This document shows positions 21,048 to 27,816 of a stretch of 64,000 nt of DNA, in pieces (position 1 is the first letter of the stretch; each line of letters starts with the position of its first letter). The position numbers were made by a program, and so were the translations under genes. This DNA comes from an uncultured Candidatus Rokubacteria bacterium (GTDB lineage Bacteria > Methylomirabilota > Methylomirabilia > Rokubacteriales > CSP1-6). The stretch covers positions 256,001-320,000 of the forward strand of contig CAVXJS010000009.1 in NCBI GenBank assembly GCA_963762145.1. Reading direction: 5' to 3'. The notes beneath the pieces are model-generated. The model did no database searches, was not told the origin of the DNA, and saw nothing but the letters and a program-made list of their open reading frames with translations.

Positions 21048-24000
21048 GTGGCAGACTCCGGTCCCCGGTTCGCGCTGAAGCGCATCTTCTCCTTCTCGCG
21101 CTCTGCCTCCCCGCGCGCGCTGACCCCCAGCCAGCCCGCCCTCGCCACCGGCGTGATGAGCGATGACGTGCTCGGGAACGCGTCGCGGCGGTCCTGGATC
21201 GCGCGGATGCGCGAGCTGCTGCATCGGCGCTACGTCCTCTTCCCGCTGCTCGCGGTGGTGGTCGCCCTCGCCGCGCTCGTGGAGATGCGCACCTCGACGG
21301 TGCAGGCGCTCGTGCTCTCGCGCGCGGCCGCCTGGCTGACCTACCGGGTGGACCCGGGCCCGAGCAAGGCCGTCCGCTTTCCCAAGACCGGCCCCTACGA
21401 CGAGCGGCTCGGCTACACCCGGCTCGGCAGCTTCGTCGAGCGGCTCGAGGGCGCGGGCTATCGCGTCGAGCGCCAGGCGCGGCTCTCGCCGGGCCTCGAC
21501 CGGCTCGCCGCGTGGGGCGTCGCGCTCCCCTACCGGGAGAAGACGCGGGCGGGTCTCGCGGTGCTCGACCGCGACGAGAAGCCCCTCTACGCCACCCGCT
21601 ATCCCGAAGAGGTCTACGAGCGCTTCGAGGCGGTGCCGACCCTCCTCGTCAACACCGTGCTCTTCATCGAGAACCGCGAGCTCCTCGACGCGGGCCACCC
21701 CTTCCGCAATCCGGTGGTGGACTGGCGGCGGCTCGCCAAGGCGGTCGGGGTCGAGGCGCTCGGGCGCCTGGGCGCCGAGCGCCACTCGATCGGGGCGAGC
21801 ACGCTGCCCACCCAGCTCGAGAAGCTCCGGCACTCGCCGGACGGGCGGACGCGCTCCCCCGCCGACAAGCTGCACCAGATGATCTCGGCGAGCCTGCGCG
21901 CCTACCAGGGTGGCGTGCAGACGCGGGCCGCGCGCCGGCAGATCCTGGTGGACTATCTCGACTCGCTCCCCCTCGCGGCCGCCCCCGGGCACGGCGAGGT
22001 GCACGGCATGGGCGACGGCCTGCGCGTCTGGTACGGCCTCGACTTCGCGGAGGCCAACGCCCTCCTCGAGGCCAAGCCCGGGATCTCCGAGGCCGCGCGG
22101 GCCCACGCCTTCAAGCGCGCGCTCAGCCTGATCCTGGCGGTGCGGAGGCCGTACCACTACCTGGTCGAGAATCCGCGCGGGCTCGAGGAGTTCACCGACA
22201 GCTACCTGCGCGTGATGGCCCGCGCGGGCGTGATCGACGCGAGCCTGCGCGACGCCGCGCTGGCGCAGCGGCTCGAGCCGCGCGCGGGCAACGGGCCTGC
22301 CACGACCGCCTTCGTGGAGCGCAAGGGCGCGAACCTGGTGCGCAGCCGGCTCACCACCCTGCTGAACGTGCCCGGCCTCTACGACCTCGACCGGCTGGAC
22401 CTCACCGCCTACAGCACGCTGGACGCGCCCGGCCAGGGGGCCGCGACGCGGCTCCTGCGGTCTCTGCGCGAGCCCGCGACCATCGAGCGCCTGGGGCTCG
22501 TCGGCGAGAAGCTCCTGGGCGGGGGCGATCCCGCGCGCGTGATCTACAGCGTCACGATCTACGAGCGCGGGCCCCACGCCAACCGGATCCGCATCCAGAC
22601 CGACAACCTCGACCAGCCGCTCGACATCGCGGGGGGTGCGCGGATCGATCTCGGCTCCACCGCCAAGCTCCGCACCCTGATCTCGTATCTCGAGGCGATC
22701 GCGGTGCTCCACGACCGGTACGCTCGGCTCACGCCGGCGGAGCTGGCCGCGGCCCGGCCGCATCCGAAGGACCGCATGGGCGCGTGGGCGATCGAGTACC
22801 TCACCGCCGCGCGCGGCACCGACAAGACGCTCCGGGCAACGCTGGAGGCCTCGCTCGAGCGCAAGTACTCGGCGAGCCCGGGCGAGGCCTTCTTCACCGG
22901 CGGAGGGCTCCACACCTTCGGCAACTTCGACCGCGAGGACGACCGCAAGGTGATGACGATCCGCGAGGCTTTCCAGAACTCGGTCAACCTGGTCTTCATC
23001 CGCCTGATGCGCGACGTGGTCACCAACCACCTCTACGGCTCCGAGACCTCGCTCGCGGTGCGCCTGGCCGATCCCCTCGACCCGCGCCGCGATCGCTACC
23101 TGACCCGGTTCGCGGATCGAGAGGGCAGCGAGTTCGTCCGGCGCTTCTACCGCAAGTACCAGGGCCTGGCCCTCGACGCGCAGCTCGAGCTGGTGCTGAG
23201 CGGCGCGCGCGCCACCCCCAACGGCCTGTCCACCGCGCTGCGCTCGGTCTACCCGGAGGTGAGCCTCGAGATCTTCCGCGAGCTGCTCACCGCGCGGCTG
23301 CCCGGCCGCGGACTGTCCGACAAGATGGTCGCGGAGCTCTACGAGCGGGCGGACCCGCAGACGATGCCGCTCGCCGACCGCGGCTACGTGGCCGGCGTGC
23401 ATCCCCTCGAGCTCTGGCTGGCGGGCTACCTCCGCCGGCATCCGGGCGCGGGCATCACGCAGGTGGTGCGGGCCAGCAGCGCCGAGCGGCAGGCCGTCTA
23501 CGGCTGGCTCTTCTTCACGCGCCACCGCAACGCGCAGGACAACCGCATCGCCAGCCTGCTCGAGATCGAGGCGTTCCTCGACCTGCATCGGAACTGGGAG
23601 CGGATGGGTTATCCGTTCGCGTCCCTCACCCCGTCGCTGGCCACCGCCATCGGCAGCTCCGGCGATCGTCCGGCCGCGCTCGCCGAGCTGATGGGGATCA
23701 TCCTGAACGACGGCGTCCGCCTCCCGACCGTGCTGGTGGACGGCGTGGACTTCGGAGTGGGCACGCCCTACGAGACGCACATGGGGCGCGCGGAGGTCCC
23801 GGCGACGCAGGTCCTCGCGCCCGAGGTGGCCGCGGTGGTGCGGGGGATGCTCACCCAGGTCGTCGACCAGGGCACCGCGCGCGGCCTCCGGCCCGCGCTG
23901 GCGCAGCCCGGCGCCACCCCGCACGTCGCGGGAGGCAAGACCGGCACCGGCGATCACCGCTACTTCATCTACGCCAAGAACGGCGCGGTGGTGGAGTCGC

Positions 24001-24209
24001 GCGTGGTGAGCCGGGCGGCCACCTTCGTCTTCATGCTCGACAACCGCTACTTCGGTACCGTCACCGCCTACGTGCCGGGACCCGAGGCCGCGCGCTTCCA
24101 CTTCACGAGCGCGCTACCCGTGCGGGTCACCGGGCTGCTCGTGCCCGCGCTCAACCGCCTCTCCGCGGCGCCGCCGCCGGCTCCCGTCGCCGCGTCCGCT
24201 TCCCCCTAG
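21048..24209 (+). CDS. Large transglycosylase/transpeptidase-like penicillin-binding protein
   Basis: N-terminal TM, FIENR, GASTLPTQL, GSTAK, SVN, GKTGTG. Confidence 0.85.
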   Translation: MADSGPRFALKRIFSFSRSASPRALTPSQPALATGVMSDDVLGNASRRSWIARMRELLHRRYVLFPLLAVVVALAALVEMRTSTVQALVLSRAAAWLTYRVDPGPSKAVRFPKTGPYDERLGYTRLGSFVERLEGAGYRVERQARLSPGLDRLAAWGVALPYREKTRAGLAVLDRDEKPLYATRYPEEVYERFEAVPTLLVNTVLFIENRELLDAGHPFRNPVVDWRRLAKAVGVEALGRLGAERHSIGASTLPTQLEKLRHSPDGRTRSPADKLHQMISASLRAYQGGVQTRAARRQILVDYLDSLPLAAAPGHGEVHGMGDGLRVWYGLDFAEANALLEAKPGISEAARAHAFKRALSLILAVRRPYHYLVENPRGLEEFTDSYLRVMARAGVIDASLRDAALAQRLEPRAGNGPATTAFVERKGANLVRSRLTTLLNVPGLYDLDRLDLTAYSTLDAPGQGAATRLLRSLREPATIERLGLVGEKLLGGGDPARVIYSVTIYERGPHANRIRIQTDNLDQPLDIAGGARIDLGSTAKLRTLISYLEAIAVLHDRYARLTPAELAAARPHPKDRMGAWAIEYLTAARGTDKTLRATLEASLERKYSASPGEAFFTGGGLHTFGNFDREDDRKVMTIREAFQNSVNLVFIRLMRDVVTNHLYGSETSLAVRLADPLDPRRDRYLTRFADREGSEFVRRFYRKYQGLALDAQLELVLSGARATPNGLSTALRSVYPEVSLEIFRELLTARLPGRGLSDKMVAELYERADPQTMPLADRGYVAGVHPLELWLAGYLRRHPGAGITQVVRASSAERQAVYGWLFFTRHRNAQDNRIASLLEIEAFLDLHRNWERMGYPFASLTPSLATAIGSSGDRPAALAELMGIILNDGVRLPTVLVDGVDFGVGTPYETHMGRAEVPATQVLAPEVAAVVRGMLTQVVDQGTARGLRPALAQPGATPHVAGGKTGTGDHRYFIYAKNGAVVESRVVSRAATFVFMLDNRYFGTVTAYVPGPEAARFHFTSALPVRVTGLLVPALNRLSAAPPPAPVAASASP

Positions 24210-24237: not shown

Positions 24238-24394
24238 GGGCGGGACGCCGGGGGGCGGGGGCCCTCCCGGGAACACGCTGAGTCGCATTGCCGCGGGGCC
24301 ACTCTCACGAGCCACGAGACAGGACGCGTCTCGCTTCGCTTGCGCGCAGAAGACACGGTTCCCGGGAGGGCCCCCGCCCCCCGACGCCCCGCCC
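24238..24394. repeat. MITE-like element with ~37-bp terminal inverted repeats
   Basis: GGGGGGCGGGGGCCCTCCCGGGAAC (24250-24274) is the reverse complement of 24358-24382, with imperfect outward extension. Confidence 0.65.
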
Positions 24395-24548
24395 TATGCG
24401 CCATCTACCGACAGCGATCTGTGGTGCGCGCTCCGAGCGCGGGCTTCGCCCGCGCATCCTGTTCCTTGATTCTGCTGTGCTAGGGGGGAGGCAGGGAGGA
24501 GCGCGCCGTCCGGCGCGCGACGACCGTCGGAAGCGACTGTCTTGCCGG

Positions 24549-25481
24549 TCAAGCGGGTTGCCATGGGCGGCGGTCCCGGAGCATGGCGTTGAGGATCGTG
24601 AGCAGCTTGCGCATGGCCGCGATGACGGCGACCTTCTTGGGGCGGCCCGCGGCCGTGAGCCGCCGGTAGACCTCCCGGATCACCGGGTTGTGGTGAATCG
24701 CCACGATGGTGGGCATGTACAGCGCGCGGCGGACGGCGGCCCGGCCCCCGCCGATCATGCGCCGCCCCCGCCAGCGGCCGCTGTCGCGATTCCACGGCGC
24801 CAGGCCGACGAGCGCGGCAATCCGACGCCGATCCAGCTGACCCAGTTCCGGGAGGTCGGCGATCAGCGCGTGCGCGGTGAGGTCGCCAATCCCGGGCGCC
24901 GAGGTCAGCAGATCCTCCGTCTCCCGCCACACGGAGCTCGTGCGAATGAGCCGGGCGATCGCCGCGTCGACCTCCGCGATCGCCCGCGTGAGCCACGTGA
25001 CGTGCGCCCGGATGCGCTGTTGCAGCCCGCGGACCCGCGCTTGGCGATGCCGGTTCTGCTCGGCCCCCAGCATATCGACGAGCTGGCGCCGCCGGGCCAC
25101 GAGTTCCCCCAGCCCCTGCGCCTGCTCCGTGGCCAGCGGCCGCGCCGCCGGCTGCACCAACTCCGCAAAGCGCGCATTGGCCCGCGCATCGAGCCGATCC
25201 GTCTTCGCCAGCTGCCCCGTGGCCAGCGCAAACTGCCGGACCTGCCGGGGATTGACCACCGCCACCGGTAACCCGGCGTGTGCCAGCGCGGCGGCGACGG
25301 CGCTCTCATACCCGCCGGTCGCTTCCAGCACAATCAGCATCGGCCGCAGGTCGACCAGCCGGTGCACCAGCGTGGCCACCCCCGCCTCTTCGTACGCCAC
25401 CGCGAACTCCTCATCCGTGGGGCGTACATGCACGTCCAGCCGATCCTTCGAGACATCCAGCCCCACGAAGATCCGTTCCAT
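24549..25481 (-). CDS. IS110 family transposase / bridge recombinase (310 aa)
   Basis: DEDD motifs GLDVSK, LEATG, KTDRLDA; Tnp-domain serine in APWNRDSG; intact frame. Confidence 0.95.
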   Translation of the reverse strand: MERIFVGLDVSKDRLDVHVRPTDEEFAVAYEEAGVATLVHRLVDLRPMLIVLEATGGYESAVAAALAHAGLPVAVVNPRQVRQFALATGQLAKTDRLDARANARFAELVQPAARPLATEQAQGLGELVARRRQLVDMLGAEQNRHRQARVRGLQQRIRAHVTWLTRAIAEVDAAIARLIRTSSVWRETEDLLTSAPGIGDLTAHALIADLPELGQLDRRRIAALVGLAPWNRDSGRWRGRRMIGGGRAAVRRALYMPTIVAIHHNPVIREVYRRLTAAGRPKKVAVIAAMRKLLTILNAMLRDRRPWQPA

Positions 25482-25484
25482 GTC

Positions 25485-25650
25485 CCGTCCTTGTCGATGC
25501 GGGCTCGCCGAGCGGCCCAAGCGACTGTTCGGGTTCACGGCACGTGAAGCGGCAGGCAGGGCCCCAGGCTTCCGAACGGTCTTGGTAGACCCAGGGGGGC
25601 GCGGGCTCCCGCCCGCCTTCACTCCGGCTACGCTATCCGCCGGAGTTCCT
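25485..25650 (-). ncRNA. Predicted bridge RNA (5' hairpin, target-binding loop, donor-binding loop)
   Basis: 5' stem ACTCCGGC/GCCGGAGT; guides GCGCCCCCCT and TCGGAAG match the target flanks; ACAGTCGCTTG and ACAAG match the donor junction. Confidence 0.85.
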
Positions 25651-25682
25651 AAGATACAAGGGGGGCGCAGCCCCCCTCCGAG

Positions 25683-26522
25683 TCAATACACTTCGTCGCG
25701 CTCGCCGAATTCGAACTGGTAGGTCGTCTCGTCGAGCTCGGTGTTGGTGACGAGCTGCTTGCGGGCGAGGAGGGCTTCGAAGGTCTGGAGCCAGATCTCG
25801 TAGTAGACGAAGGGGGCGGGGCGCGTCTCGGCGGCGGCGATCTGGGCGATGAGCGCCTGGCGGAACTCTTCCCAGTCGTACACGCCGCGCTCGTGCAGGG
25901 CGACGGCCATACCGAAGACGCGACCCTGCCAGGGCTCCTCGAAGACCAGCTCGCCGTTCTTGCGCGGCAGCGCGGCCTGGCCTCCCATGACCGCGACCAC
26001 GCGGTCCACCGTGAGGTCCTGGCCCTGCGCGGTCACCCCCGACGGCAGCGACTCGCAGGCGTGGGCCTGGCGCCCGCGCCAGAGGCGGGCGTCGTCCACC
26101 GGCTGGCCGTCGGGACGCGGCTGCCAGGCGGAGGCGGTGAACTGGTACGGGGCGAGGGCCGACGGCGAAGGCAGGCAGGCGTCGGCGTCCAGCATGGCCT
26201 CGACGTGATCGTAGAGGGCGACCGCAAGCGCGTCCGAGTCGATCGAGTGGAACCACTGAGCCTGGCCGTCGAAGAGCAGGAGCGCCACGTTGGCGAGGGC
26301 GCACGGTCCGAGGCAGCCGCCGATCGTCAGGTGGATGATGTTACGGAGCCGCCGCCGCTCCCACTCGCGGTGGAAGGTCTCGGTCGGGACCGGCGCGAAG
26401 CCGTCCTCGGTGCGGCCGCAGCAGCAACCGGTGGCGCAGATGAAGAGCTGACCCCGGAAGCGCGCCACGTTGACCCGCCGCCCGTCGCGGCGCACCACGA
26501 TGTTACGCCGGCGCTCGTACAC
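25683..26522 (-). CDS. Nitrile hydratase accessory/activator protein fused to an N-terminal Cys-rich thioredoxin-like ferredoxin (CbiW-like) domain
   Basis: N-term FICATGCCCG...GGCLGPC; C-term LPRKNGELVFEEPWQGRVFGMAVAL...WEEFRQALI...YYEIW. Confidence 0.8.
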   Translation of the reverse strand: MYERRRNIVVRRDGRRVNVARFRGQLFICATGCCCGRTEDGFAPVPTETFHREWERRRLRNIIHLTIGGCLGPCALANVALLLFDGQAQWFHSIDSDALAVALYDHVEAMLDADACLPSPSALAPYQFTASAWQPRPDGQPVDDARLWRGRQAHACESLPSGVTAQGQDLTVDRVVAVMGGQAALPRKNGELVFEEPWQGRVFGMAVALHERGVYDWEEFRQALIAQIAAAETRPAPFVYYEIWLQTFEALLARKQLVTNTELDETTYQFEFGERDEVY

Positions 26523-26536
26523 GGGGCCGGCGCCGC

Positions 26537-27130
26537 TCAGGAGGCGGTCACGCGCGGCTCGGCCACGCCGATGAGCGCGTCGCGGGTGATCAGCGGCACC
26601 AGCTCCGCTTCGCTCATGGCCTCGGTGCCGGCCGGCCTGATCGGCAGGACCATGTAACGCATCTCGGCGCTCGAGTCCCACACGCGGATCTCGCGCTCCG
26701 CCGGCACCTCGAGCCCCATCTCCCGCAGGATCGTCCGCGGCTCGCTGACCGCGCGCGAGCGGTAGGCCGGCATCTTGTACCAGGTGGGGGGCAGCCCCAG
26801 CACCGGCCACGGGTAGCAGGAGCAGAGCGTGCACACCACCAGGTTGTGCACCGCCTCCGTGTTCTCGACCACCATCAGCATCTCGTAATCGAGATCGAGC
26901 TGCCCGAGCGCGGCCCTCGGGTCCTCCAGGAGCAGGCGCCGGTAGTCGGGATCGGTCCACGCCTTCGCCACCGCGCGAGCGCCCGTCATCGGGCCGGTGT
27001 CCGCCTCGTAGCGCTGGATCACCCGATCCACCGCGTCGGGGGCCAGGATGCCCTTCTCGAGCAGCAGCGACTCGAGCGCCCGCACGCGGGACACGATGTA
27101 GGGATCGACGTTGGGGTGGTTCTTGCCCAT
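26537..27130 (-). CDS. nthA: Cobalt-type nitrile hydratase alpha subunit
   Basis: [10 protein letters not shown] metal motif (Thr/Tyr = Co type), [18 protein letters not shown]. Confidence 0.95.
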
Positions 27131-27135
27131 CCGCG

Positions 27136-27816
27136 TTACCTCCCGGGTAGGAGATAGCTCTCCCAGAGATCGATGTGCACGGCCTGGTTCGCCTCCGCCG
27201 ACTCGCCCCACAGCTCGCGCGCGTCGAAGCGCACGCTGTAGAGCGGCTGCGGCTGCTCGCCCTGCCCGTGGGCGTTGGTGTCGGGAAACACGTGGATACC
27301 GTGGCAGCAGTGGATGACGCCGCGCTTGCCGCGCGCGTAGCGCGGCAGCCGCGTGTGGCCGTGCGGGTGCATGTCCCGCGTGAGGACGGCCTCGCCCGGC
27401 GCGAACCGCGGCGTGGCTCCGGTCTCGCGGATGAAATCCGTCATCGAGGCCCGCCGGGAGGCGCCCCGCGACGGCGGCGGCCCGGGCAGCGCCGCGGTAG
27501 CCGGCGCGTCGGGCTTCTGCTCGAAGAACGTCCGCCGCGCGATCAGCTCCTGGGGATCCAGCACGCCCTTCTCGAGGAGGACCCGGGTGATCCCCTCGAG
27601 CCACTTCTCGTAGTAGGTCGCGCGCAGGTAGTGGGCCGGAGCCATGCGCTCGATGCCGTGGCGGAACTCGTCGATGTTGTAGAGCAGGCCCTGGCGGCCT
27701 GCGTGCTGGATGGCCAACACCACCGCCTCCCAGTCGGCGTGGAACGTCGGCTCGTTCTCCTCGCGCTCGACCGGCCCGAAGCCCTGCATGCCCCCCAGAT
27801 CGTGCACCCCGTTCAT
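27136..27816 (-). CDS. nthB: Nitrile hydratase beta subunit
   Basis: [39 protein letters not shown]. Confidence 0.95.

What the first reader, a model, noticed from the sequence alone, without database searches (positions are those of the whole stretch)
24527..25668. Complete IS110 bridge-recombinase system with a readable bridge RNA programmed against a REP hairpin
Seen (minus strand): the element runs CT-TGTATCTT...transposase...TTGACCGGCAAGACAGTCG-CT. The non-coding left end has a 5' hairpin (25621-25647) and four guide-like segments. GCGCCCCCCT (25593-25602) is a 10/10 match to the left flank plus core (25659-25668). TCGGAAG (25569-25575) is the reverse complement of core plus right flank CTTCCGA (24527-24533). 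ACAGTCGCTTG (25518-25528) is identical to the predicted circle junction, and ACAAG (25490-25494) is complementary to the junction CTTGT. Established: this is the LTG/RTG/LDG/RDG order of IS621 bridge RNAs. Inference: a compact (310 aa), intact and probably active programmable recombinase from an uncultured lineage, with its own target and donor specificity.
Basis: partly seen in the sequence, partly recalled or inferred. Interest (0 to 1): 0.85.

Follow-up and report, generated by a model that had tools for sequence, protein, structure and literature searches.

The report
Intact IS110 element with bridge RNA
This is an intact small mobile element of the well-known IS110 family that carries its own guide ("bridge") RNA aimed at a repeated hairpin downstream of genes; it is a clean natural example of a known system, not a new kind of system.

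Summary
Window 24534-25658 (minus strand) is a 1125-bp IS110-group insertion sequence flanked by a CT core on each side. It encodes a 310-aa DEDD/serine recombinase: PF01548 + PF02371, NCBIfam "IS110 family RNA-guided transposase" at 210 bits, and E about 1e-34 to the solved IS621 and ISCro4 recombinases, with all five catalytic residues kept. Its 177-nt left end folds into a 5' hairpin plus two internal-loop stem-loops.

New evidence:
- The genome holds three 99%-identical intact copies, all in the same site of a REP-like hairpin.
- The orthologous locus is empty in same-genus relatives, two of which carry the exact 15-nt target.
- In 18 elements, the right target guide matches its own flank 7/7 in 16, through seven different guide sequences.
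- Handshake bases, a split promoter across the circle junction and a short subterminal inverted repeat are conserved.

Transcription, the circular form and recombination are inferred, not shown.

Verdict: a new member of a known kind.

The parts
24534..25658 (-). Whole IS110-group element, 1125 bp, between two copies of the CT core
   Evidence: The boundaries follow from three 99%-identical copies whose identity stops exactly here. Empty orthologous sites in relatives confirm them.
25659..25668 (-). Left target (GCGCCCCC) plus core CT (25660-25659). It is the descending arm of the REP hairpin 25676-25660.
   Evidence: The same flank is present at copies 1 and 2. Copy 3 differs at the two outermost bases.
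25659..25682 (-). 24-nt left arm of the REP-like unit (CTCGGA-GGGGGGC-TGC-GCCCCCC-T), directly after the stop codon of the upstream gene
   Evidence: It recurs in this genome. It also occurs at 100% identity many times in relatives of several families.
25482..25658 (-). Left non-coding end, 177 nt, which encodes the bridge RNA
   Evidence: Fold of -85.1 kcal/mol, z = -2.1. On 15 aligned sequences, 74.5% of cells pair against 65.3% in shuffles, and 25 of 44 pairs have compensatory changes.
25651..25656 (-). -10 box TATCTT of the split promoter
   Evidence: It lies 17 nt from the -35 box once the right and left ends are joined through one CT. Same layout in 13 of the 15 relatives examined; L008's hexamer was picked by eye, not by the script.
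25621..25646 (-). 5' stem-loop of the bridge RNA
   Evidence: Helix 2 has 4 of 6 pairs with compensatory changes.
25552..25617 (-). Target-binding loop: a closing stem, an internal loop and a distal hairpin (25578-25591)
   Evidence: The closing stem has 10 of 14 pairs with changes on both sides and 79.8% of cells paired.
25593..25602 (-). Left target guide (LTG). It is identical to the top strand of left target plus core, so it pairs with the bottom strand.
   Evidence: 10/10 match. The polarity is as published for IS621.
25569..25575 (-). Right target guide (RTG), the reverse complement of core plus right target. Base 25568 (C) is the handshake base and pairs with donor position 7 (G).
   Evidence: 7/7 match. 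16 of 18 elements match their own flank 7/7, and the handshake pair holds in 18 of 18.
25535..25549 (-). Small hairpin between the two binding loops
   Evidence: It is weakly conserved: helix 5 has 54% of cells paired.
25484..25534 (-). Donor-binding loop. Its CCCG/CGGG closing stem overlaps the ribosome-binding region.
   Evidence: The distal hairpin has 92% of cells paired. The sequence is highly conserved.
25518..25528 (-). Left donor guide (LDG), identical to right end plus core plus the first 2 bases of the left end
   Evidence: 11/11 match. The 9-base version is 7-9/9 in all 13 elements.
25490..25494 (-). Right donor guide (RDG), the reverse complement of core plus TGT. Base 25489 (G) is the handshake base and pairs with target position 7 (C).
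   Evidence: A compensatory change is seen in L015/L018, where the left end starts AGT and the RDG reads ACTAG. The handshake pair holds in 18 of 18.
24549..25481 (-). Recombinase gene, 310 aa, with a DEDD RuvC-like domain and a Tnp domain. Catalytic residues are D9, E53, D95, D98 and S234.
24547..24552 (-). -35 box TTGACC, overlapping the TGA stop codon
24534..24548 (-). Right non-coding end, 15 nt. AAGA at 24543-24540 is an inverted repeat of TCTT at 25654-25651.
24527..24533 (-). Second core copy CT (24533-24532) plus right target TCCGA
   Evidence: It is identical at all three copies.
24429..24526 (-). Remainder of the composite REP unit to the right: a GC hairpin, a C-tract, then the hairpin GCGCGGGC-GAA-GCCCGCGC
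   Evidence: Metagenome contigs diverge from the window at 24429 (table 7).

Best explanation
This is an intact, recently mobile insertion sequence of the IS110 group, the group in which the guide RNA lies in the left end.

Inferred mechanism, by homology with IS621:
1. The element excises as a circle.
2. Joining the right and left ends through one CT core brings a -35 box (TTGACC, overlapping the stop codon) to 17 nt from a -10 box (TATCTT).
3. This promoter transcribes a bridge RNA of roughly 160-177 nt, and probably the recombinase mRNA behind it.
4. The RNA's first internal loop pairs with the target GCGCCCCC-CT-TCCGA. The LTG pairs with the bottom strand and the RTG with the top strand.
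5. Its second internal loop pairs with the donor junction ACAGTCG-CT-TGT. One handshake base in each loop is complementary to position 7 of the other DNA.
6. A tetramer of the 310-aa DEDD/serine recombinase then exchanges strands at the CT core.

The target is the descending arm and foot of a GC-rich hairpin that belongs to a repeated extragenic palindrome placed just after stop codons.

Shown here: the anatomy, the matches, the three same-site copies, the empty orthologous sites and the covariation across relatives.

Inferred: transcription, the circular form, catalysis and reprogrammability.
For: **Protein**
- PF01548 at 6.5e-21 and PF02371 at 9.2e-18.
- NF033542 'IS110 family RNA-guided transposase' at 210.4 bits, against a cut-off of 140.
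- phmmer against solved structures: ISCro4 9t56 at 5.4e-36 and IS621 8wt6 at 4.6e-34, aligned end to end.
- D9, E53, D95, D98, S234 and G235 align to IS621 D11, E60, D102, D105, S241 and G242. All are kept in all 3 copies.

**RNA**
- The fold gives a 5' hairpin plus two stem-loops with internal loops. This is the published consensus architecture (passage).
- Structure covariation score is 0.278 against 0.149 in shuffles, with 0 of 500 shuffles reaching it. Slid controls score 0.063-0.121.

**Guides**
- All four matches are present, and chance does not explain them.
- The polarity equals the IS621 model.
- Across 18 elements the RTG matches its own right flank 7/7 in 16, using seven different RTG sequences.
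- The LTG matches exactly or nearly so in the window, L005, L014, L027 and L028. In L032 it matches 8/8 by my reading of the printed sequences; no script computed it.
- Both handshake pairs hold in 18 of 18 elements, with compensatory changes in L017 and L014.

**Mobility**
- The genome holds 3 copies with 8-9 differences in 1125 bp, all in the same site.
- These are the only PF01548 hits in the genome.
- The orthologous locus is empty in same-genus relatives, and L041 and L043 there carry the exact 15-mer.
- The split promoter has the same layout in 13 of the 15 relatives examined as in the window. For L008 this is my reading of the hexamer; the script picked another one there.
- Contigs from three soil-metagenome studies hold the element at 95-99+% identity, with flanks that diverge only outside the REP unit.
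Against: - No direct evidence of transcription exists. One 264-nt contig from an RNA library covers 25352-25613 with 11 differences, but it may derive from DNA and belongs to a relative.
- No circle-junction joint was seen, although only assembled contigs were available.
- No Rfam family matched the left end.
- Copy 3 has two mismatches to the LTG at the outermost left-target bases.
- In 7 of 18 related elements the best LTG match is 5/8 or worse. Left-half pairing is therefore looser than the clean picture in this window suggests.
- The genome has no free exact target left, so further transposition within this genome may be limited.
Confidence: 0.92

Rival explanations
1. Target choice is set mainly by the recombinase recognising the shape of the GC-rich REP stem-loop. 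RNA pairing is then a secondary or partial check, a 'dual-match' or right-half-dominant mode rather than full RNA programming.
For: - The left target is itself the descending arm of a 7-bp GC stem (25676-25660).
- Copy 3 tolerates two LTG mismatches.
- 7 of 18 related elements have an LTG match of 5/8 or worse while their RTG is 7/7.
- A preprint reports a target stem-loop as an extra specificity determinant for ISPpu10 (abstract only).
- Another preprint reports half-match insertion for IS621 (abstract only).
Against: - In this element both halves match perfectly at copies 1 and 2.
- The LTG tracks the flank in relatives with quite different, non-REP-like left flanks: L014, L027 and L028, and L032 by my reading.
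- The LTG scoring is a crude sliding match and may understate pairing.
Confidence: 0.2
2. The three copies are fixed relics that spread by duplication or REP-mediated homologous recombination, not by transposition. The element is no longer mobile.
For: - Copies 1 and 3 share about 50 nt of right flank.
- No free exact target remains in the genome.
- No circle junction was seen.
Against: - The shared flank is only the REP unit. Beyond it the three loci are unrelated.
- All three ORFs are intact with their catalytic residues.
- Identity stops exactly at the CT cores.
- The orthologous site is empty in relatives.
- Metagenome contigs show further flank contexts.
Confidence: 0.06
3. The guide-like matches are chance, or are REP-derived sequence carried along in the left end, without any RNA-guiding role.
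For: The region is very GC-rich, and the target is C-rich and of low complexity.
Against: - 0 of 200,000 Markov replicas gave the three matches together.
- Seven different RTGs each match their own flank.
- Compensatory changes occur in the RDG (L015/L018) and in the handshake bases (L017, L014).
- The guides sit in the internal loops of a covarying structure.
Confidence: 0.02

Closest known systems
IS621 of Escherichia coli (bridge recombinase; PDB 8wt6; PMC11208160, PMC11208158)
   Same: - The same two protein domains and catalytic residues, aligned over the full length.
- The guide RNA lies in the left end, with a 5' hairpin, then a target-binding loop, then a donor-binding loop.
- The same guide order and strand polarity, a CT core and handshake bases.
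- A promoter split across the circle junction, a REP-type target and a left end of the same 177 nt.
   Different: - The proteins are distant homologues (phmmer E = 4.6e-34 over the full length; percent identity was not computed).
- 310 aa here against the 326 aa given in the passage.
- A very short 15-nt right end.
- High-GC guides, a different target and donor, and a host from an uncultured soil lineage.
- Nothing has been tested experimentally here.
ISCro4 recombinase (PDB 9t56)
   Same: It is the best-scoring solved relative (5.4e-36, full length).
   Different: It is 341 aa. Only the protein was compared here; its RNA was not examined.
Related elements in MAGs labelled Methylomirabilia / Rokuibacteriota (L005, L006, L020, L021) and in same-genus genomes (L026-L029)
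   Same: - 58-67% protein identity or 68-72% DNA identity.
- The same 1123-1133-bp layout.
- An almost identical donor-binding loop, right end and split promoter.
   Different: - Different target-binding loops and insertion sites: RTG CCCAGAG, GACTGAG or GTCAGAG instead of TCGGAAG.
- None of the 40 relatives searched holds this element at more than 72% identity.
ISPpu9 / ISPpu10 of Pseudomonas putida (IS110 family, REP or stem-loop targets)
   Same: They insert into repeated intergenic palindromes. For ISPpu10 a GC-rich stem-loop lies on the 5' side of the target (abstract; ISPpu9 abstract start in the listing).
   Different: No sequence comparison was made here. ISPpu9 carries its small RNA gene downstream of the transposase (listing), whereas here the RNA lies upstream.

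Membership tests
IS110 family, IS110 group (bridge recombinase + bridge RNA) | [quoted passage not shown] | tested here: met
   6.5e-21, residues 6-147.
IS110 family, IS110 group (bridge recombinase + bridge RNA) | C-terminal Tnp domain (PF02371) with the conserved serine | tested here: met
   9.2e-18, residues 190-273. S234-G235 align to IS621 S241-G242.
IS110 family, IS110 group (bridge recombinase + bridge RNA) | Catalytic D, E, D, D and S all present | tested here: met
   D9, E53, D95, D98 and S234 are present in all three copies.
IS110 family, IS110 group (bridge recombinase + bridge RNA) | Curated family model scores over its cut-off | tested here: met
   NF033542 at 210.4 bits, cut-off 140.
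IS110 family, IS110 group (bridge recombinase + bridge RNA) | Long left end and short right end, as opposed to IS1111 | tested here: met
   The left end is 177 nt and the right end 15 nt. The criterion is from the passage.
IS110 family, IS110 group (bridge recombinase + bridge RNA) | [quoted passage not shown] | tested here: met
   The criterion is from the passage.
IS110 family, IS110 group (bridge recombinase + bridge RNA) | In the first loop, the 5' side equals the top strand of left target + core, and the 3' side is complementary to core + right target | tested here: met
   10/10 and 7/7. Covariation across relatives supports it.
IS110 family, IS110 group (bridge recombinase + bridge RNA) | The second loop pairs in the same way with the right-end/core/left-end junction | tested here: met
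   11/11 and 5/5. 7-9 of 9 in 13 elements.
IS110 family, IS110 group (bridge recombinase + bridge RNA) | Handshake bases complementary to position 7 of the non-cognate DNA | tested here: met
   18 of 18 for both loops, with compensatory changes in L017 and L014.
IS110 family, IS110 group (bridge recombinase + bridge RNA) | Sigma-70-like promoter reconstituted across the circle junction | tested here: met
   TTGACC / 17 nt / TATCTT by sequence, conserved in relatives. Promoter activity was not tested.
IS110 family, IS110 group (bridge recombinase + bridge RNA) | Short (2-3 bp) subterminal inverted repeat flanking the donor | tested here: met
   AAGA / TCTT. L013 has the covarying AACA / TGTT.
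IS110 family, IS110 group (bridge recombinase + bridge RNA) | Site-specific insertion at a short core, with the core present on both sides and once in the empty site | tested here: met
   3 of 3 copies. Empty sites have a single CT.
IS110 family, IS110 group (bridge recombinase + bridge RNA) | Circular intermediate | tested here: inconclusive
   Only assembled contigs could be laid, and no junction joint was listed.
IS110 family, IS110 group (bridge recombinase + bridge RNA) | RNA is made, binds the recombinase and is required and reprogrammable | not testable with these tools
   This needs RNA-seq and a recombination assay.
IS110 family, IS110 group (bridge recombinase + bridge RNA) | Match to a curated bridge-RNA covariance model | tested here: inconclusive
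   Rfam 15 gave only a chance-level hit (sX15, E = 10, opposite strand). The authors' own model was not available.
IS1111 group | Guide RNA in a long right end, with 7-17-bp subterminal inverted repeats | tested here: not met
   The right end is 15 nt and the inverted repeat is 4 bp.

The most novel reading that the evidence does not exclude
The element has filled every exact copy of its target in this genome. There are 0 free exact 15-mers against 3 occupied sites, while same-genus genomes without the element hold up to 11 free exact sites. The remaining REP units of this genome all differ from the target in the core, the loop or the C-run. On this reading the element is a recent invader that saturates one REP subfamily, and REP sequence drift acts as escape from an RNA-guided transposon.
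Probability: 0.25. Interest if true: 0.45.

Novelty: new member of a known kind. Interest (0 to 1): 0.3.

Why it matters
It adds a cleanly delimited, probably active natural bridge-recombinase system from a high-GC soil lineage. Target, donor, handshake bases and promoter can all be read directly from the sequence. Empty sites and diverged relatives form a natural series of guide/target pairs.

That is useful as an orthologue for tool development. It is also a natural data set on how strictly the left and right target halves are matched in the wild. It does not change what is known about the mechanism.

Tried and rejected
- **Rfam scan of 24300-25900** at E up to 10. It gave only sX15 on the opposite strand at E = 10 and 16 bits against a gathering score of 55. 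I rejected this as chance.
- **First alignment A1**. I gave the wrong strand for copy 2, so I discarded it and remade it as A2.
- **RNAalifold on A2**. It did not call the CCCG/CGGG closing stem of the donor loop, because the 3' ends are misaligned in some rows. I therefore scored the window's own fold on A2, with the intra-guide pairs removed. That structure derives from one of the aligned sequences, which favours it in the slid controls.
- **Column-fixed LTG and RDG scoring**. It was off by one base in several rows, so I replaced it with sliding matches.
- It mislocated the RTG and the donor loop in L007, L021 and L026. It was superseded.
- **Rows dropped.**
  - A2 has 15 rows: window, copy 2 and 13 of the 17 loci. 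L011 and L012 were left out because their left end is the same as L010's, L016 because it is cut, and L019 because its left end is 325 nt.
  - Searches used 13 elements. Copy 2 was dropped, and L018 because its right end is not in the locus.
  - One search used 18 elements. Dropped were L013 (only 10 nt of left flank), L016 and L018, L019, L025 (the same as L021), and L031 and L032 (incomplete).
- **Fuzzy regex search for REP look-alikes**. It timed out and printed nothing. I replaced it with blastn-short using a natural unoccupied site.
- **Read laying**. All four runs were assembled contigs.
  - No joint going back from 24534 to 25658 (the circle junction) was listed, and this says nothing about absence.
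  - The joints that skip about 1194-1201 bases, with 17-27 letters between, have short sides of 22-28 letters. I read them as other REP units without the element, not as excision at this locus.
  - The RNA-library run X16 covers only part of the stretch, at 90-99% identity. I do not count it as expression.
  - Runs with a small share of words are not used for any habitat claim.
- **Supplementary tables** of PMC11208160, which list IS110 orthologues and predicted bridge RNAs, were not opened. They may already include this element or a near relative.
- **Not run,** because they were not needed: structure prediction, complex prediction and the large protein searches.
Full report
**Observation**

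On the minus strand the element reads CT-TGTATCTT ... ACAGTCG-CT.
- GCGCCCCCCT at 25602-25593 equals left flank plus core at 25668-25659.
- TCGGAAG at 25575-25569 is the reverse complement of CTTCCGA at 24533-24527.
- ACAGTCGCTTG at 25528-25518 equals the right end plus CT plus the first two bases of the left end.
- ACAAG at 25494-25490 is the reverse complement of CT plus TGT.

Chance was tested with 200,000 first-order Markov replicas of the 177-nt left end. The 10-mer arose 593 times, the 7-mer 3,439 times and the 9-base donor match 39 times. All three together (counted with the 8-base core of the 10-mer) never arose.

**Protein**

The 310-aa ORF (25481-24549) has PF01548 and PF02371. It scores 210.4 bits on NCBIfam NF033542, 'IS110 family RNA-guided transposase', whose cut-off is 140. 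It aligns over its full length to the solved ISCro4 (9t56, 5.4e-36) and IS621 (8wt6, 4.6e-34) recombinases.

I counted along that alignment. The PDB chain is two residues longer than the native protein: D13 of the chain is D11 of the paper. On that basis D9, E53, D95, D98 and S234-G235 correspond to the IS621 residues D11, E60, D102, D105 and S241-G242. Mutation of those residues abolishes recombination (PMC11208158, passages). All are kept in the three genomic copies, which differ by 3-4 amino acids and have no internal stops.

**RNA**

The left end folds, at -85.1 kcal/mol and z = -2.1, into four parts.
- A 5' hairpin.
- A long stem closing an internal loop with a distal hairpin.
- A small hairpin.
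- A second stem-loop with an internal loop.

The LTG and RTG lie on the 5' and 3' sides of the first internal loop. The LDG and RDG lie on the two sides of the second. This is the architecture and guide polarity described for IS621: the 5' side pairs with the bottom strand, the 3' side pairs with the top strand, and the core is included in each pairing (PMC11208160, passages).

On an alignment of 15 left ends, the structure has 74.5% of cells paired against 65.3% in shuffles. It has 25 of 44 pairs with changes on both sides and a covariation score of 0.278, against 0.149 in shuffles and 0.063-0.121 in slid controls. The closing stem of the target loop has 10 of 14 compensatory pairs. One caveat applies: the structure was taken from the window's own fold. 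Rfam holds no matching family.

**Copies and target**

The assembly is 6.26 Mb in 25 contigs and 88% complete. It holds three copies with 8 and 9 differences in 1125 bp, and these are the only PF01548 hits. Identity stops exactly at the CT cores.
- All three left flanks read CTCGGAGGGGGGCT(GC or AT)GCCCCCC-T.
- All three right flanks read CT-TCCGA.
- Beyond the repeat unit the three loci are unrelated.
- Copy 3 has two mismatches to the LTG at its outermost bases.

The site is the descending arm and foot of a 7-bp GC hairpin that sits directly after a stop codon. It belongs to a composite repeat: hairpin 1, then a C-tract, then a second hairpin GCGCGGGC-GAA-GCCCGCGC.
- About 16 further look-alike units were printed from this genome.
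- 13 of 19 matches to a C-tract motif show the hairpin-1 architecture.
- The 24-nt left arm occurs at 100% identity many times in relatives from several families of the same order.

So 'REP hairpin' is a fair description.

**Empty sites**

The gene upstream of the window copy is conserved in all 20 same-genus genomes searched. At its end, five relatives have the repeat unit without any insertion.
- L041 (G020) and L043 (G005) carry the exact GCGCCCCCCTTCCGA with a single CT.
- L037, L040 and L042 carry near variants.

The exact 15-mer is free 0 times in the window's genome. It is free in 11 of 40 relatives: 11 times in G020, 8 in G014, 5 in G001 and 3 in G005. The reversed control pattern gave no hits in any genome.

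**Relatives and covariation**

Seventeen loci encode relatives at 41-67% protein identity. The closest are in MAGs labelled Methylomirabilia or Rokuibacteriota. Same-genus genomes hold elements at 66-72% DNA identity, and none of the 40 relatives holds this element at more than 72%.

Across 18 elements the following holds.
- The RTG matches its own right flank 7/7 in 16, through seven different RTG sequences. Non-cognate pairs from different groups match 7/7 in only 7%.
- The LTG is looser: the best sliding match is 7/8 or better in 8 elements and 5/8 or worse in 7. It clearly tracks the flank in L005, L014, L027 and L028. In L032 the match is my own reading of the sequences printed.
- The RDG changes to ACTAG where the left end begins AGT (L015/L018).
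- The base 3' of the RTG pairs with donor position 7 in 18 of 18. The base 3' of the RDG pairs with target position 7 in 18 of 18. Compensatory changes occur in L017 and L014. These are the handshake guides of PMC11208158 (passage).
- A -35 box TTGAC(N) in the right end lies 17 nt from TATCT(N) in the left end once the ends are joined through one CT. This holds in the window and in 13 of the 15 relatives examined. L008 is counted by my reading of the hexamer. L014 lacks the box, and L015 has 20-nt spacing.
- A 3-4-bp inverted repeat flanks the donor.

**Environmental data**

The element is held at 54-84% of sampled words by runs from several soil-metagenome studies. I laid contigs from three DNA studies and one RNA library.
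- Pieces at 95-99+% identity were found.
- Loose ends start at 25682 and at 24429, which means other flank contexts outside the repeat unit.
- Some contigs carry the repeat unit without the element.
- All laid contigs carry GG at 25587-25586, where the window copy has TA. The other two genomic copies also carry GG.
- No circle junction and no proof of transcription could be obtained from contigs.

**Comparison and verdict**

Every sequence-level defining feature of an IS110-group bridge system is met. The functional features (RNA made, circle formed, recombination, reprogrammability) are untested. The element differs from IS621 in sequence, in its very short right end and in its GC-rich target and donor. 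It does not differ in kind. Its placement next to a GC stem-loop recalls ISPpu10 (abstract). The loose left-half matches in relatives recall half-match insertion (abstract).

It is a new member of a known kind.

Noticed in passing
window 25683-27604 (minus): Directly upstream of the element lie nitrile hydratase genes. NHase_alpha scores 9e-80 on residues 172-348 of the listed ORF. NHase_beta_N matches only residues 325-416 of a 425-aa listed ORF. The listed ORFs overlap and are probably over-extended at their 5' ends.
   Followed up: partly
window 21048-24209 (+): A 1053-aa protein with transglycosylase and transpeptidase domains, which looks like a class A penicillin-binding protein. Several long antisense and out-of-frame ORFs in this GC-rich stretch are probably not genes.
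   Followed up: partly
genome-wide, e.g. G000 C21:971396, C9:591179, C14:424964, C10:293179; window 24429-24533 and 25659-25682: A composite extragenic repeat sits right after stop codons: GC hairpin, C-tract ACCTCCCCCC, about 10 nt, then a second hairpin GCGCGGGC-GAA-GCCCGCGC. It has subfamilies that differ in loop and stem. One variant carries an extra GC hairpin after TCCGA. The left arm is conserved at 100% identity across several families of the order. It may act as a terminator.
   Followed up: partly
L021/L025, L029, L006, L012: These are related elements whose RTG matches the right flank 7/7 but whose LTG matches the left flank poorly, at 5/8 or worse. They could be natural half-matched insertions, or an artefact of my crude LTG scoring.
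   Followed up: partly
L005, L007, L013 (left donor guide): In these relatives the two LDG positions opposite the core read AC instead of CT, although the element ends in CT. So the core is not paired canonically by the LDG in part of this clade.
   Followed up: no
window 25586-25587: The window copy has TA in the distal hairpin of the target-binding loop. The other two genomic copies and all laid metagenome contigs have GG. TA adds one U-A pair to the hairpin stem.
   Followed up: partly
L019 (1164-1488) and L015 (2419-2748): L019 has a 325-nt left end, about 115 nt longer than its close relative L008. L015 has a right end of about 330 nt, giving a 1485-bp element whose -35/-10 spacing is 20 nt.
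   Followed up: no
G000 C1:6098-6118 (near a contig end): A REP unit reads GGGGGGCTCCGCCCCCC followed by TTGCCTCGCC, and it is followed by a second hairpin of a different subfamily. It is not an insertion of this element.
   Followed up: no
window 25352-25613: A 264-nt contig from a soil metatranscriptome library (X16) covers most of the bridge-RNA region (down from 25613) and the start of the recombinase gene, with 11 differences. It may derive from RNA or from carried-over DNA.
   Followed up: no
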